A stretch of DNA of 64,000 nucleotides from the NCBI GenBank assembly GCA_964106915.2, contig OZ066920.1; one strand, written 5' to 3'. Origin of the DNA: Podarcis gaigeae (lineage: Eukaryota). Positions 20,001-55,500 of this stretch are shown piece by piece (position 1 is the first letter of the stretch; each line of letters begins with the position of its first letter). The position numbers were made by a program.

Positions 20001-23000
20001 TACTTGCCTTGTGAGTGCCCTGCCATTCCCTGGGTGCCTTCTCTCCATCTGGCTGGTTCTCTCAAAAACAGGCTGCTTCCTTTTCTCAGTTTCCTATGCT
20101 TAAGCTCTCACAGTGATGAAGGAAACAACATGAGGTATCACTGAGGAAGAATAAACTGCCCTTGTTCTCATATGTGTGCAAAGCAAAAGAGATTTTTCCT
20201 TCTCTGCAAGAGTTCCCTGTCTCTGTGCTCTTCAGTTGGCCTGATCTGAACAGCAGTGATGGGAGTTACTGCAGTCTAGGAAGCATCACTGAATCTCTAT
20301 CCTCTCTCTGGCTCTCATACTGGCCAACACTGACACTTAGAGGACCACTCAAGGAACTGCAAGGAAAACCATGTTCACCATAACATAGAAAGATGGAGCT
20401 AAAAAAAAGTACGTTTCCACAATGTGAACTTTCTCTTTAGCCAATTGCAAGTGGGGCATTTGAAAAAGCTTTTCCTTTGTTTAGCATATTTATTACTTAT
20501 TACTTTTATTGTCCACACCTTCAGCAACAAAGGCTTCCAGGGTGGGGCACAGGTTCAAAACGACAATATAAATAAAACAAAAATAAAACAAACTATACTC
20601 ATTATAGAGACCAACGAAGTTTGTTATTGGAATGAGCTTTCGTGTGCATGCACACTTCTTCGTGCATGCACATGAAAGCTCATACCAATAACAAACTTAG
20701 TTGGTCTCTAAGGTGCTACTGGAAGGAATTTTTTTATTTTGTTTCAAGTACAGCAGACCAGTACAGCTACCTACCTGTAACTACACTCATAATGTTTGGT
20801 TATGAATAGATTTCATTTATTTTTTAACTGGCCTCAATCCAGCTCCCTTTCAAAATGGGATTGGTGACTCTGGCAGATTTTCATTATTCCCCTTACACAT
20901 ACATGCAAAAGAAGCACAAACTATCCCTTTTTAAATGCAGTGGAAGGCCCTTTGAGATACTAAGTGTGAATAAACTTCTGGATAATTCCCCCCACCCCCC
21001 CGCTTCACTCAGTTCCCTTCAGCAACAAAGTGAAGTATGGGCTCTCTTTTCCCTGCTACTCTTCTCAGTAACCTCAGTTCATGGTAGATGTGGGCAGAGA
21101 TGGCAGTTAGCGTTTTGCAGACATATTCAAAGGAAGATTCCTCTTTTGCCTTCCTTGTCAATAATGGGTGTAGCTTCTTCATGCACTAGGACTTTGACTG
21201 AAGAGACTGCAGCTCCCAGAGGAGGCCAGTGGCTCTCTCCAAGGTCTTCAGCAAAGGGGTCAGAAGACAGCAGAGGAACACACAGGCTAGAGCTACTTTC
21301 AGTGGCTTTTTAGATAGTATTGTGAAAATTGAGATTGCATCTGGGACTGCAGTTTCGTTTACATGAAGATGATACTCATGTCCACTTTTTATTGGTAATA
21401 TGGTGACATTGTTAATATATATACTTGTGTATAGTTATAACCAGTATATTTAACGTTTCCCCACCATATTACATATCTGTGTAGCACAAATAAACTGTGC
21501 CATTAATTTGAAGCAGAGAATTGAATCCTGTCATGGTAAACAGTGTGGGATGGTTCATGGTTTGAGAGTTTCTTTATCACCAGTAGTTGCTGATCCTTGG
21601 TGATACTTCCAAGTGAAGAGCCTTCCTCAGTTTCCTCAGGGAAAAAGTGGCGAATCTTCAAGGAGTGGTAATGAGTTGCCAATGTTAACAGATAAAAGAG
21701 ACAGCGTGATAAAAGAATTGTAAGTCTAAGGTGTTAGAAGGGAGATCTTTAGATTCTGAGGTATAAATAGGACCAATGTGAGCAATTTTGTTAGGTTTTA
21801 TTGAAAATATGCCACAGTGGTCTTTAGGAGGTAGCTTGCTTTGGGTGGTGGCGATAGATTGAGTAGTAACTTCCTGTCAACAGCTAAAACAATCCTGCGT
21901 GGCACCCCCATGCAATTTCAGCGAACAAGGAAAATCTCTTTGCTGCTCCTAAGACATATCATAGAAATGCAAACAGGCCTTGTGCCATGTTCAGACATAT
22001 TTAACAAAAGCCTGACATTCTTTATAAAGTTATCTAACTCCATCCAGAACTGAAAGATTTTCATTGCTCTCATTCATATTGCAGAAAGTTTTTTTTTTAA
22101 TCATATAAAATACCAGGATGATAAAGCTACAATTACATATGGCTTGAGCTAACTGGAGGCAACTATAGGAGGACACACATCAAAACTACCCCCCTCCCAC
22201 AGTTGGGACTTTGCAGAGTTATGCGGCCACTGCCAATCCACAGCCCTGCTGTTCACATTAGCCATAGCAGAATATGGAGATCCAGAATGACCTGGTCCGA
22301 GTCTGTTACATGACTGCAGCAAGACTGGCTCAGGATACAGCAGTTACTGGGCCAGCTCAGCCATGTCCCTGCCCTCAGAATGCCCCATTTGGGGCTCTCC
22401 ATTGGCTCCTGCACATCCAGCAGGTAGAAGGTGATGTCAGCTGAGCTGAGAGAGCCAGGCAGGGGGACGTCTCTGCCTAATCCAAACTCCGTCCCCTGGC
22501 TCAGTGGAAATGGGGGTTGGATTGCTTTGTGTATCATCACTGGCTTATTAAAATACCTGTCTGACCTCTTTAGACTCTCAGATGATGCCAAATATTATTG
22601 CTCAAAATGTGAAATAAATTTGCCTTGTTATAATATCCTACTTGAGAGTCCCATGGACTGCAAGAAGATCAAACCTATCCATTCTGAAGGAAATCAGCCG
22701 TGAGTGATCACCGGAAGGACAGATTGTGAAGCTGAGGCTCCAGTACTTTGGCCACCTCATGAGAAGAGAAGACTCCCTGGAAAAGACCCTGATGTTGGGA
22801 AAGATGGAGGCCACAAGGAGAAGGGGACGACAGAGGACGAGATGGTTGGACAGTGTTCTCGAAGCTACCAGCATGAGTTTGACCAAACTGCGGGAGGCAG
22901 TGGAAGACAGGAGTGCCTGGCGTGCTCTGGTCCAGGGGGTCACGAAGAGTTGGACACGACTAAACGACCAAACAACAACAACAACAACAACAATATCCTA

Positions 23001-52500: not shown

Positions 52501-55500
52501 AATGAATCTGCTCTGATGCAGCCCAACAGGTAAAAGACAATAGAGAGAGAAGCAGTACTTGCCTTGTGAGTGCCCTGCCATTCCCTGGGTGCCTTCTCTC
52601 CATCTGGCTGGTTCTCTCAAAAACAGGCTGCTTCCTTTTCTCAGTTTCCTATGCTCAAGCTCTCACAGTGATGAAGGAAACAACATGAGGTATCACTGAA
52701 GAAGAATAAACTGCCCTTGTTCTTATAGGTGTGCAAAGCAAAAGAGATTTTTCCTTCTCTGCAAGAGTTCCCTGTCTCTGTGCTCTTCAGCTGACTTGAT
52801 CTGAATAGCAGTGATGGGAGTTACTGCAGTCTAGGAAGCATCAATGGATCTCTATCCTCTCTCTGGCTCTCATACTGGCCAACACTGACACTTAGAGGAC
52901 CACTCAAGGAACTGCATTTTGTTCTATGAAAATAGACAGAAGTGAATAAAAGCAGATATTTCTCCAGCACATACTGATACCTTCCTTTCTGCTCACTTAG
53001 TGGAGCATTTGAGAAAGCTTTTCCTTGGTGTTCTTTCTTAGTGTACAGCTACCCTCATTTATGTTCGTGGCTTTTCAGTACTGTGAAAATTGGGGTCGTA
53101 TCTAATACTGAAATTACATGAAGGTTATGCACATCTTCATTTTTTATTGGAAATATGGAAACATTATTATTAATATATAAATATCCAGTTACAGAGTAAA
53201 ACTTTATCTTAAAATTAATGTATTACGATAATAATTATGCTATAGTAGCACAGGAGCTGTACGTCTACTGTATTTTTGTTGTTGCTTAAATAGAATATAA
53301 ACACCCTCTTGAAATTATTCTCTTTTTTTATCTCTCCTAAGTTGTTGGATGCCTGTTCATCAACATTTATAGAACACAGCACAAGTTCTTCTCAGGGTTG
53401 GGTAGGAATTCCAAGAGTAACTTACTATTCCAAGAGTTCTCTCTCTGTCTGTTGAGGATAAGATAAGATGCAACACATGTAGCTTCTGTCTAGGCAGCAC
53501 GAGGTAATAAAAGTGTGTTCGCCGGTATTGGTTCTACATCAGACTCTGCCACCTGCCTCCTACCTGCTGGTGCCACACAAATGTCCTTGCTTAGCAGTTG
53601 CTCCCCGTGACCAAAGCAGGAACTCAGCACAAGTGCAGGACCAATGGCTATAGTTGCTCTACCAGCAGTAAAAAAGTTTAAAGGACCCCCTGGATAGTTA
53701 AGTTCAGTCAAAGGAGACTATGGGGTGGCAGCGCTCATCTCTCTTTCAGGCCGAGGGAGTCGGCATTGGTCCACAGACAGCTTTCCAGGTCATGTGGCCA
53801 GCATAACTAAACAGCTTTTGGCACAACAGAACACCTTGACGGAAGCTAGGCATGATCCAAGAGAATAAAATGTTTGTTGGCACTTTGCACATGATTTCAT
53901 ATAAAGATAATAGCATCATGAAGTTTGGGAACTGAGAACAGTGGAGAGACAAGAGGTGTTAGAAGAAATCAATAGTGTCTAATTGAAAGAGTATATGATA
54001 GAGGTTTTATTAGAAAATAAGTAATTTACTTTCAGTTTGTATGCATTAGAGGGAATAGTTCCTCTTATTGCTCCATAGAACAGCCTACAGGACCATAAAC
54101 CCAATCTGGAGATGTGTATGCTATTCAAATCTTTTTGCCTGCCCTATATACCCTTGAAACTGGACCCCCACTGAACGGAATTTACATTTCCAAGTGATCA
54201 CAACCAGAGTGCTGCCTAATTTTCAACATGCTTCTAGTTTTTCATCTGCTAGTCTATCACACAGAAACATTGCACACAATTCTATTTCATAAAAACATAA
54301 AAGCATAAGAAGAGCCCTGCTGGATCAGGCCAGAGCTCTATTGAGTCCAGCATCCTTTCTCCCACTGTGGCCAACCAGATGCCCCTAAAAAAGCTCTGCC
54401 CTTGGTCCACAGTCAGAGGTGTCTGGTACTAGACATAATATAGCCAACATGACAATGAATTTTTTTCTAATCCCCCTTTAAAACCACCCAAGTAGGTGAC
54501 CATCATTTCTTCTTGTGGTAGTGATTTCCATTGTTTGTTTGTTTGTTTAAATAAGTAAATTATTTAGAAATGGGTTATATAAAAAGAAAATGGTTGGGTA
54601 TACAATTACCATTAAATTTCTATTATGAACTTAAATAAAGCATATAGCCTTCATAAAGATCCGAATAAAGTATGTGGGTCTGCGTTATCTTGAACTTCAT
54701 TGCACCAATAAAATATGAAAATAAACACAGAAAGTTATCAGACTGCCTCCCCTCTCTGACTCTTACTGTATTAATTAGTTGAACCATTGATAAAATATTC
54801 CATGCTGTAGTAATCCATTCCCCTAAAGTTGGTGTTCTTAGCCCCTGCCCTCAGTTATAACAAATAGTTGCTCTGGCCACAGACGGTTACTGTTGGAGTA
54901 ATTATCAGTCTTCTGTTGTACTAAATCCTTAAAGTAACTAGAGAAATCAATGAGAGGATCCATTGGCAAAGTGCATCCTGTCATTATTTCATTTTCTCTT
55001 ATCATATCCACCCACAAATTCTTAATTTAGGGACATGCCTTCCAAATCCGTTGCATCCTAGCATTGGTTGAATTGTACTTCCAACGTAATTATTTGCTGT
55101 ACTATAAATTTGACCAAACTGTGGGAGGCTGTGGAAGACTGGAGTGCCTGGCGTGCTCTGGTCCATGGGGTCATGACGAGTCGGGCACGACTAAACAGCT
55201 AAACAACAACAACTAAAATGTGACAAAGCCACAGTAGTGTCATGTACCATCAAAAAATAAACGTATACAAGTGTTTCTTAAGATTCACACTAATTGTTTG
55301 CTGCCATATCCATTTTCACTGATCTGATGTCCCAGACTTCTCTGGCAATTACTTTTTGCATTTAGTTGTCAACAAGGAATTCGATAGTTTAACTATGCAT
55401 TGTATGAAGAAGGTCTTCCTTAAATCTGTTCTGAATCTCCCAATGTTCAGCTTCACCCAATGGCCACAGGCTCCAGTAATATGGGGGAGGGGGATCTCTC

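What the first reader, a model, noticed from the sequence alone, without database searches (positions are those of the whole stretch)
21320..54100. Array built from a Y-X-A triplet, with the gamma-A member lost in three of four copies
Seen, in transcription order: Y10 X9 | Y8 X7 | Y6 X5 A4 | Y3 X2 pseudo-A | exon 1. The X9-Y8 spacer is a fusion: 53000-53265 matches sequence upstream of Y3 (20450-20480, 21320-21500), then from ~53310 it matches sequence upstream of A4 (27770-27900, 28295-28425, 29545-29700). The ~6.3 kb carrying A4 has no counterpart. The X7-Y6 spacer joins the Y promoter (~41260) directly to the 29.6k/54.0k-like sequence, a larger deletion. Inference: triplet duplications followed by repeated gamma-A loss shifted the repertoire towards gamma-B.
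Basis: partly seen in the sequence, partly recalled or inferred. Interest (0 to 1): 0.7.

Follow-up and report, generated by a model that had tools for sequence, protein, structure and literature searches.

The report
Lizard protocadherin-gamma variable exon array
This is part of a lacertid lizard's clustered protocadherin-gamma locus, an ordinary though neatly readable case of a neuronal cell-surface gene array that grew by copying gamma-B exons while gamma-A exons decayed.

Summary
The window carries ten protocadherin variable exons on the minus strand: four X and four Y (both gamma-B-like), one further gamma-B-like exon (E1) and one gamma-A (A4). The X9-Y8 spacer is a colinear fusion of sequence lying downstream and upstream of A4. 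About 6.3 kb (21422-27768) has no counterpart there. The X7-Y6 spacer lacks a further 1.1 kb.

- The two A-less spacers are sisters: 69.9% identical to each other, against 56-57% to the A4-bearing spacer. The A-less state therefore most likely arose once and was copied with an X-Y unit, rather than being lost repeatedly.
- That fusion could equally be the junction of a duplication that never included A4. The window cannot tell this apart from a deletion.
- The "fourth copy" (Y3, X2, pseudo-A) shares only exons with the other units, not spacers.
- Exon likeness is inflated by gene conversion. dS is 0.01-0.17 in EC6, TM and the cytoplasmic part, against 0.16-0.88 in EC2-3.
- Decay of gamma-A exons is real. 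Besides the pseudo-A, I found two unreported A-type relics (14219-14400 and 21473-21698).

This matches the known pattern of the Anolis gamma cluster (gamma-b expansion, interspersed a/b exons, pseudogenes). It is a new member of a known kind, of modest interest.

The parts
2675..5116 (-). E1: gamma-B-like variable exon (814 codons, ATG to GT donor)
   Evidence: Pfam Cadherin_2, 5 Cadherin and Cadherin_C_2. 68-70% aa identity to X and 64-65% to Y. Donor GTGAGA. Pairs with a Zootoca 'gamma-B7-like' protein, P0172, at 96% in EC1-3.
5347..5368 (-). Promoter conserved element of E1, CGCT core intact
6531..8031 (-). Pseudo-A: decayed gamma-A exon, truncated at both ends
   Evidence: nhmmer 200 and 193 bits to A4 24834-26477, against at most 65 bits to B exons. 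12 in-frame stops and many frameshifting indels. No promoter element nearby.
10841..13273 (-). X2: gamma-B-like exon, oldest X member; its signal peptide and promoter differ from X5/X7/X9
   Evidence: Homology to the other X exons runs only from 10807 to 13164.
14219..14400 (-). A-type relic (cytoplasmic part, matches A4 24413-24585) lying between Y3 and X2
   Evidence: 93 bits to A4 against at most 18 bits to B exons. tblastn 68% over 60 aa, E 2e-10.
17628..20048 (-). Y3: gamma-B-like exon
   Evidence: PDB best hit is gamma B4 at 773 bits. Homology with Y6 and Y8 runs from 17615 to 20375.
20094..21421 (-). s2: Y3 promoter and upstream sequence, with counterparts upstream of Y8 (52649-53179)
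21473..21698 (-). A-type relic (5' part, matches A4 26366-26580) at the edge of the segment missing from the other units
   Evidence: 38 bits to A4 against at most 12.7 bits to B exons. E 1.6e-10 in the window-wide search.
22640..23009 (+). Retroposon copy ending in a (CAA)n tail, flanked by a direct repeat of about 10 bp
   Evidence: 95% identical to 29719-30061. Flanking duplication read from the alignment. The family name (Bov-B LINE 3' end or Sauria-SINE-like) is recalled, not tested.
24220..26631 (-). A4: the only intact gamma-A exon in the window
   Evidence: PDB best hit is gamma A9 at 642 bits, against 481 bits for gamma B2 over the same span. 95% to Zootoca 'gamma-A4-like' and 74-81% to other squamates. 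Donor GTGAAG. Promoter element at 26819-26840.
27769..31829 (-). s1: spacer between X5 and A4, with colinear counterparts in 53310-56088
29708..30105 (+). Second retroposon copy with its own 13-bp flanking duplication. The homologous site in the X9-Y8 spacer (54092-54234) is empty.
31971..34400 (-). X5: gamma-B-like exon
38512..40932 (-). Y6: gamma-B-like exon
40978..42976 (-). X7-Y6 spacer: A-less, and lacking the equivalent of 52917-54017
43034..45463 (-). X7: gamma-B-like exon
46451..47333 (.). Inferred junction of the tandem duplication of an A-less X-Y unit, inside the Y8-X7 spacer
   Evidence: The X7-proximal part (45495-46450) matches the Y10-X9 spacer (58587-59484). The Y8-proximal parts (47334-48660 and 49586-49943) match the Y6-X5 spacer. 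The stretch between them matches nothing. This is an inference.
50183..52603 (-). Y8: gamma-B-like exon
52649..56089 (-). X9-Y8 spacer: A-less fusion of s2-like (52649-53179) and s1-like (53310-56088) sequence, with the junction in 53180-53309
56126..58555 (-). X9: gamma-B-like exon
61609..63999 (-). Y10: gamma-B-like exon, its 5' end cut by the window

Best explanation
**What it is.** The window is part of the variable-exon array of the protocadherin-gamma cluster of a lacertid lizard. Each exon encodes a signal peptide, six cadherin repeats, a membrane span and a short cytoplasmic stub. Each has its own promoter element and a GT donor for splicing to constant exons, which must lie beyond coordinate 1. 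That part is shown.

**How the array grew (inferred).** It grew by tandem duplication of gamma-B units. The A-less X-to-Y spacer is a fusion of the sequences that flank A4, and it arose once. It arose either as the junction of a duplication covering only Y and X, with breakpoints near the 21.4k-like and 27.8k-like points, or through one 6.3 kb deletion. It was then copied when an already A-less X-spacer-Y unit was duplicated, with the junction at about 46.5-47.3k. One copy (the X7-Y6 spacer) later lost a further 1.1 kb.

**Age and exon likeness.** The duplications are old: spacers are 57-70% identical, and individual exons have partners in other lacertid species. The exons stay alike because gene conversion homogenises EC5, EC6, TM and the cytoplasmic part, and in Y3, Y6 and Y8 also the promoter and EC1.

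**Gamma-A decay.** Gamma-A exons decayed separately in the older, downstream part of the stretch, leaving one pseudogene and two relics.
For: **Identity**
- Pfam domains.
- PDB best hits: gamma A9 for A4, gamma B4 for X5 and Y3.
- Named squamate orthologues, several carrying the constant-region domain PF15974.
- GT donors in 10 of 10 exons.
- A promoter element upstream of 9 of 9 complete exons, with 0 elsewhere and 0.21 expected by chance.

**Fusion spacer**
- Six colinear same-strand blocks among 10 hits. No hit in 20 of 20 shuffles.

**Single origin**
- XY(9-8) against XY(7-6) is 69.9% identical (JC distance 0.39). Against the A4-bearing spacer the values are 57.0% and 56.2% (distances 0.64 and 0.66).
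- Shared-state sites number 320, against 152 and 141. Shared gaps of 5 nt or more number 13, against 3 and 6.

**Unit duplication**
- The Y8-X7 spacer has a chimeric make-up.

**Age**
- 7 of 9 B-type exons pair with a protein of another lacertid in the EC1-3 tree. X9 and Y8 found no partner among the 28 database rows.

**Gene conversion**
- The 3' two-thirds of the exons are 95-99% identical, while flanking spacers are 60-75% identical or cannot be aligned.
- dS is 0.16-0.88 in EC2-3 and 0.01-0.17 in EC6, TM and the cytoplasmic part. For Y3-Y6 it is 0.023 in signal peptide plus EC1.
- The EC5-to-cytoplasm tree collapses to near-polytomies.

**Gamma-A decay**
-.
Against: - No outgroup locus could be examined, so the direction of change (loss, never present, or gain) rests on parsimony.
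- The second deletion in X7-Y6 removes the very junction that would prove shared descent of the two A-less spacers. Their greater likeness could in principle come from later conversion between spacers.
- The alignments at 56-57% identity include poorly aligned columns.
- One block in the Y-X spacers is 92% identical (36724-37487 and 47338-48144), much higher than its surroundings. It is unexplained. If it is a mobile element, part of the support for the chimeric-spacer argument weakens, although 38042-38372 matching 49586-49944 remains.
- Exon trees cannot order the duplications. dS in EC2-3 is star-like, and Y10 and X2 are the outliers rather than Y3.
- The window stops inside Y10, so the array's upstream end is unseen.
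Confidence: 0.6

Rival explanations
1. A Y-X-A triplet was duplicated to four copies. The gamma-A member was then lost independently three times: two separate deletions of different size and one pseudogenisation.
For: Both flanks of A4 are present in the X9-Y8 spacer. The X7-Y6 spacer has a different, larger gap. A pseudo-A lies after X2. Gamma-a and gamma-b exons are interspersed in Anolis, mammals and coelacanth, and block duplication has been proposed for them (PMC2764143, Results section read).
Against: The two A-less spacers are sisters, with shared substitutions and 13 shared gaps. The larger gap fully contains the smaller one, so one origin plus a 1.1 kb secondary deletion is simpler. 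The Y3-X2 and X2-E1 spacers share no spacer homology with the other units. An A-type relic lies between Y3 and X2, and another between A4 and Y3, which a clean triplet does not predict.
Confidence: 0.15
2. A4 is a late arrival. The X-to-Y spacer was ancestrally A-less, and a segment of about 6.3 kb carrying A4 was inserted between X5 and Y3.
For: The extra segment has sharp limits (21422 and 27768) and no counterpart elsewhere in the window. No outgroup locus was available to exclude this.
Against: A4 is an old lineage. It is 95% identical to a Zootoca protein and 74-81% to proteins of Elgaria, Rhineura, Sceloporus, Pogona, Eublepharis and Gekko, but only 66% to another Zootoca gamma-A, so it is not a recent copy of a neighbour. 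Its flanks match no other A locus in the window. The segment also holds an older A-type relic (21473-21698), so A-type sequence has been at this spot for a long time. No mechanism other than duplication is known for inserting such an exon.
Confidence: 0.05
3. The shared spacer blocks are independent insertions of the same mobile elements, not paralogous spacer sequence.
For: One repeat family does occur in these spacers as independent insertions with their own flanking duplications (22640-23009, 29708-30105, and partial at 55103-55219). An inverted repeat links 31417-31574 and 53673-53843. Genome-wide copy numbers could not be measured.
Against: The six blocks used for the map occur only at the corresponding positions, in the same order and on the same strand. 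The retroposon copies are the hits that break colinearity, and they were set aside. None of 10 spacer ORFs scanned carries a transposon protein domain.
Confidence: 0.03

Closest known systems
Protocadherin-gamma subcluster of the green anole, Anolis carolinensis (Jiang et al. 2009, PMC2764143; abstract and whole Results section read, figures and supplements not seen)
   Same: Both have gamma-a and gamma-b variable exons interspersed in one array. Both show lineage-specific expansion of gamma-b (23 gamma-b against 10 gamma-a in the anole). Both hold pseudogenes at various stages of decay. The paper already proposes duplication of a and b exons as contiguous blocks.
   Different: That paper reports little gene conversion in gamma-b (highest/lowest dS ratio 2.25). 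Here the ratio between domains reaches about 50 for single pairs. The paper gives no spacer-level reconstruction of duplication junctions in the text I read. The present array is from a lacertid, and its X and Y subfamilies are only 75-76% identical to anole gamma-b proteins.
[quoted passage not shown]
   Same: Same exon architecture and domain order. A4 scores best against gamma A9, and X5 and Y3 against gamma B4.
   Different: There are no one-to-one orthologues. As far as I recall, the mammalian array keeps A and B in roughly alternating order, whereas here six of seven consecutive upstream exons are B-type.
Domain-restricted gene conversion in protocadherin clusters (Noonan et al. 2004; known to me from the account in PMC2764143 and from reference lists found, paper itself not read)
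   Same: Synonymous divergence is low in EC5, EC6 and the cytoplasmic part and high in EC2-3.
   Different: Here the tract also covers the promoter and EC1 in Y3, Y6 and Y8. I cannot say from what I read whether that has been described before.

Membership tests
Clustered protocadherin variable exon | One large exon encoding signal peptide, six cadherin repeats, membrane span and proximal cytoplasmic part | tested here: met
   ORFs run 804-814 codons from ATG to donor in the 9 complete exons. Cadherin_2, 5 Cadherin stretches and Cadherin_C_2 were found in all 4 exons scanned. The other 6 are 65-92% identical to scanned ones.
Clustered protocadherin variable exon | Own promoter with a conserved sequence element shortly upstream of the ATG | tested here: met
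   A shared 22-nt element lies about 190-270 nt upstream of 9 of 9 complete exons. There are 0 other matches in the window, with 0.21 expected. Calling it the 'CSE' with a CGCT core is recalled. The core reads CGCT in only 3 of the 9.
Clustered protocadherin variable exon | 5' splice donor joining to shared constant exons | tested here: inconclusive
   GT donors are present at the end of homology in 10 of 10 exons. The constant exons are not in the window. Annotated orthologues of 930-945 aa carry the constant-region domain PF15974.
Gamma-A versus gamma-B subfamily | Closer to reference gamma-A or to reference gamma-B ectodomains | tested here: met
   A4 scores 642 bits against gamma A9 and 481 bits against gamma B2 over EC1-5. 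X5 scores 627 bits against B2 and 568 bits against A9. Y3 scores 600 bits against B2 and 563 bits against A9. Source names of the closest squamate proteins agree. No formal tree with mammalian references was made.
Tandem segmental duplication | Paralogy extends through non-coding spacers in the same order and orientation | tested here: met
   This holds for the Y10-to-Y3 stretch. It does not hold for the Y3-X2 and X2-E1 spacers.
Gene conversion (concerted evolution) | Synonymous divergence strongly uneven along paralogues and far below that of flanking non-coding DNA | tested here: met
   No formal tract test such as GENECONV was run.
Bov-B / RTE-derived retroposon | Sequence match to the family consensus, 3' simple-repeat tail, and target-site duplication | tested here: inconclusive
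   The tail and the flanking duplications are seen. Thirty look-alike unnamed clusters score 0.97 in the ESM Atlas. No repeat library was on hand, so the family name is recalled.

The most novel reading that the evidence does not exclude
In lacertids the gamma repertoire was shifted towards gamma-B in a directed way. A-less X-Y units were amplified while neighbouring gamma-A exons decayed. The amplified exons form a distinct regulatory class: their promoters have lost the CGCT core of the conserved element (CAGT in Y3/6/8, CACT in X5/7/9), and they are kept uniform by conversion tracts that include the promoter. If so, promoter choice and adhesive diversity in this part of the cluster would follow rules different from those worked out in the mouse.
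Probability: 0.12. Interest if true: 0.5.

Novelty: new member of a known kind. Interest (0 to 1): 0.27.

Why it matters
Clustered protocadherins give neurons their surface identity, and their exon arrays turn over quickly between lineages. This window shows the steps at base-pair level: a duplication junction or deletion scar, a secondary deletion, decaying gamma-A relics and conversion tracts. That makes the general model of duplication and degeneration concrete for a second squamate family.

It also shows that exon similarity misleads as a clock in this array. Strong gene conversion occurs in a squamate gamma-b group, whereas the anole study reported little. None of this changes the accepted picture of how these clusters evolve.

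Tried and rejected
- **RNA genes.** Rfam at gathering thresholds and ARAGORN on the whole window found nothing, so the 343-bp repeat shows no recognisable tRNA head.
- **Transposon proteins.** A Pfam scan of 10 spacer ORFs of 131-168 aa found no transposon domain. One sub-threshold chance hit (C5orf34_2nd, 17 bits against a cut-off of 27) was ignored.
- **ESM Atlas.** The retroposon ORF gave only unnamed clusters.
- **Orphan promoters.** I looked for orphan promoter elements beside the pseudo-A, beside the relics and in the A-less spacers. 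None was found with up to 3 mismatches.
- **A relics in the A-less spacers.** I looked for any A-type relic in the junction 53180-53309 and in the A-less spacers. None was found.
- **One split exon.** I considered that the relics at 21.5k (5' part) and 14.3k (3' part) are the two ends of one gamma-A exon split by arrival of the Y3 unit, whose homology limits are 17615 and about 21438. The order fits, but no intervening A sequence was found, and the weak relic at 16367-16465 looks more B-like. I leave this as an idea.
- **Ordering the duplications.** Exon trees and dS gave star-like or conversion-distorted signal, so I did not use them for this.
- **Second Y promoter.** A weak nhmmer extension (52797-53192 to 21086-21438) was not taken as a second Y promoter.
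- **Literature.** Searches for lacertid or squamate protocadherin cluster work found nothing relevant beyond Jiang 2009.

Full report
**What is there**

The window has no N runs. It holds ten long ORFs, all on the minus strand. I scanned four of them (A4, Y3, X5, E1) against Pfam. Each has an N-terminal Cadherin_2 domain, five Cadherin stretches and the Cadherin_C_2 cytoplasmic domain. That is the make-up of a clustered protocadherin variable exon.

Each ORF ends in a GT donor at the point where paralogue homology stops. The coding exons run from ATG to donor over 804-814 codons. Y10 is cut by the window end.

- X2, X5, X7 and X9 are 84-92% identical.
- Y3, Y6, Y8 and Y10 are 84-91% identical.
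- X against Y is 65-70%.
- E1 is 68-70% to X and 64-65% to Y.
- A4 is about 45% to all others.

Against solved structures, A4 scores best with gamma A9 (642 bits, against 481 for gamma B2 over the same domains). X5 and Y3 score best with gamma B4 (762 and 773 bits).

The closest database proteins are named gamma-A4-like (95%, Zootoca vivipara) for A4, and gamma-B-like (90-92%, Zootoca, Podarcis, Lacerta) for X5 and Y8. Full-length models carry the constant-region domain PF15974. The window is therefore from a lacertid lizard and is not human.

I searched each exon on its own.

**The observation**

A self-comparison with blastn and the more sensitive nhmmer confirms the fusion. In the X9-Y8 spacer:
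- 52649-53031 matches the Y3 promoter and upstream (20094-20482).
- 53040-53179 matches 21284-21421.
- 53180-53309 matches nothing.
- From 53310 on, the sequence matches the region upstream of A4 in order and on the same strand: 27769-27896, 28188-28443, 29503-29706, 30106-30505 and 31576-31789.

In the control run there were 10 hits. Six were colinear, one was secondary, two belonged to a retroposon and one was inverted. Twenty shuffled targets and the reversed target gave none.

The 6.3 kb between 21422 and 27768 has no counterpart. It holds A4, its promoter and a retroposon.

The X7-Y6 spacer goes from the Y promoter tract (to about 41262) straight to sequence matching 54017-55139. It thus lacks the equivalent of 52917-54017.

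The pseudo-A (6531-8031) is clearly A-type. It is dead, with 12 in-frame stops and many indels.

**Not mobile elements**

One repeat does occur as independent insertions: 22640-23009 and 29708-30105 (95% alike), and a partial copy at 55103-55219. The two long copies end in a (CAA)n tail, and each has its own flanking duplication. From memory the sequence looks like the 3' end of a Bov-B LINE or a Sauria SINE. I could not test that.

The site of the 29.7k copy is empty in the X9-Y8 spacer. Ten spacer ORFs showed no transposon domains. Genome-wide copy numbers of the colinear blocks could not be checked.

**Where the interpretation needs changing**

1. *The two A-less spacers are sisters.* In a three-way alignment of the shared part they are 69.9% identical to each other. 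They are 57.0% and 56.2% identical to the A4-bearing spacer. Shared-state sites number 320 against 152 and 141. Shared gaps number 13 against 3 and 6.

   The Y8-X7 spacer is a chimera. Its X7-proximal 0.9 kb matches the Y10-X9 spacer, and its Y8-proximal parts match the Y6-X5 spacer. This is what a tandem duplication of an X-spacer-Y unit, with its junction near 46.5-47.3k, would leave. The A-less state was therefore most likely present before that duplication and was copied, with a later 1.1 kb loss in one copy.

2. *A deletion is not needed at all.* Duplicating a segment that runs from upstream of Y to downstream of X joins the 27.8k-like point to the 21.4k-like point and creates the same fusion. 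I see no internal feature that separates this from a single 6.3 kb deletion.

3. *The Y3-X2 and X2-E1 spacers share nothing with the other units* except the exons and a promoter element of about 90 bp. X2 differs from X5, X7 and X9 in its signal peptide, promoter and 3' flank. The 'fourth copy' is an older neighbour, not a copy of the same unit.

4. *There are two more A-type relics.* One is at 14219-14400 (93 bits to A4, at most 18 to B exons), between Y3 and X2. The other is at 21473-21698 (38 bits against at most 12.7), between A4 and Y3 and at the very edge of the missing segment.

**Age and gene conversion**

- Unit alignment shows the 3' two-thirds of the exons at 95-99% identity and the 5' third at 76-88%. 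The Y6 and Y8 5' ends with their promoters are 97.7-100% identical. Spacers are 60-75% identical or cannot be aligned.
- Synonymous divergence is 0.16-0.88 in EC2-3. It is 0.01-0.17 in EC6, the membrane span and the cytoplasmic part, and 0.023 for Y3-Y6 in signal peptide plus EC1.
- In a tree of EC1-3, 7 of 9 B-type exons pair with a protein of another lacertid. Examples are X2 with a Podarcis lilfordi protein (98%), Y10 and E1 with Zootoca proteins, and Y3 with Podarcis and Lacerta proteins. X9 and Y8 found no partner among the 28 rows.
- In the tree of EC5 to the cytoplasmic part, X and Y each collapse to near-polytomies.

The duplications therefore predate the split of these lacertid genera. 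The exons are kept alike by domain-restricted gene conversion. This is known for protocadherin clusters of mammals and teleosts, but it was reported as weak for anole gamma-b (PMC2764143, Results read).

**How it works**

*Shown:* the array consists of self-contained variable exons, each with a promoter element (9 of 9) and a donor.

*From established knowledge of clustered protocadherins (recalled):* one promoter is chosen per allele, and the exon is spliced to the shared constant exons.

*Inferred:* the history given above.

**Comparison with what is known**

The anole gamma subcluster has 10 gamma-a, 23 gamma-b and 5 gamma-c exons. Its a and b exons are interspersed, it has 14 pseudogenes in the cluster as a whole, and block duplication was proposed for it (PMC2764143).

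The present array is another instance of this pattern, seen at finer grain. Full-text searches found no paper on lacertid or other squamate protocadherin clusters beyond that one. The supplements and figures of that paper were not available to me.

**Verdict**

- This is a new member of a known kind, of modest interest.
- The outgroup synteny test, which would decide between loss, non-inclusion and gain of A4, could not be run because no eukaryotic genome collection was on hand.

Noticed in passing
window 14219-14400 (-) and 21473-21698 (-); also weak 16367-16465 (-): Two unreported gamma-A-type exon relics flank Y3. The 5'-part relic lies upstream of Y3 and the 3'-part relic downstream. A weak cadherin relic (E 0.01, more B-like) lies between Y3 and the 3'-part relic. 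The limits of Y3-unit homology (17615 and about 21438) sit between the two A-type relics, so Y3 may have landed inside an old gamma-A exon.
   Followed up: partly
window 5347-5368, 13489-13510, 20321-20342, 26819-26840, 34650-34671, 41205-41226, 45704-45725, 52876-52897, 58801-58822 (all -): The promoter conserved element keeps a CGCT core in E1, X2 and A4. It reads CAGT in Y3, Y6 and Y8, and CACT in X5, X7 and X9. So the six amplified exons whose promoters lie in the window (Y10's lies outside it) all lack the CpG core.
   Followed up: partly
window 36724-37487 and 47338-48144; tandem copy at 47863-48393: A block of about 0.8 kb in two Y-X spacers is about 92% identical and has sharp ends, while its surroundings are 40-67% identical. 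In the second spacer part of it is tandemly duplicated (period 281). It could be a mobile element, a conversion tract or a conserved element. No flanking duplication was seen.
   Followed up: partly
window 40586-41245 and 52257-52916; 20094-20375: The 5' end of the exon and the promoter of Y6 and Y8 are 97.7-100% identical, and Y3 is nearly so (dS 0.02-0.10 in signal peptide plus EC1). This is a recent conversion tract that includes the promoter and ends within about 20 bp of the spacer junctions.
   Followed up: yes
window 22640-23009, 29708-30105, 55103-55219: Retroposon copies ending in a (CAA)n tail. The two long copies are 95% alike, and their flanking duplications are oddly similar to each other (10 of 12 bases). 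The family name (Bov-B or Sauria-SINE-like) is recalled only.
   Followed up: partly
window 31417-31574 versus 53673-53843; 20574-20745; 35990-36301: One inverted match links the X5-A4 and X9-Y8 spacers (E about 1e-14). Two local palindromic stretches are also present. These are probably small mobile elements.
   Followed up: no
window 28116-28191, 28550-28627, 26915-26944: Long (CCTT)19, (CTT)26 and (TA)15 microsatellites lie upstream of A4. The (TA)15 run sits about 75-125 bp upstream of the A4 promoter element.
   Followed up: no
A4 exon, window 24220-26631: The best A4 match is a Zootoca protein (95%), while the listed Podarcis muralis gamma-A4-like protein is only 81%. Yet the B-type exons are 96-98% identical to Podarcis proteins in EC1-3. 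The true Podarcis orthologue may be hidden inside the 90% cluster of the Zootoca entry.
   Followed up: no
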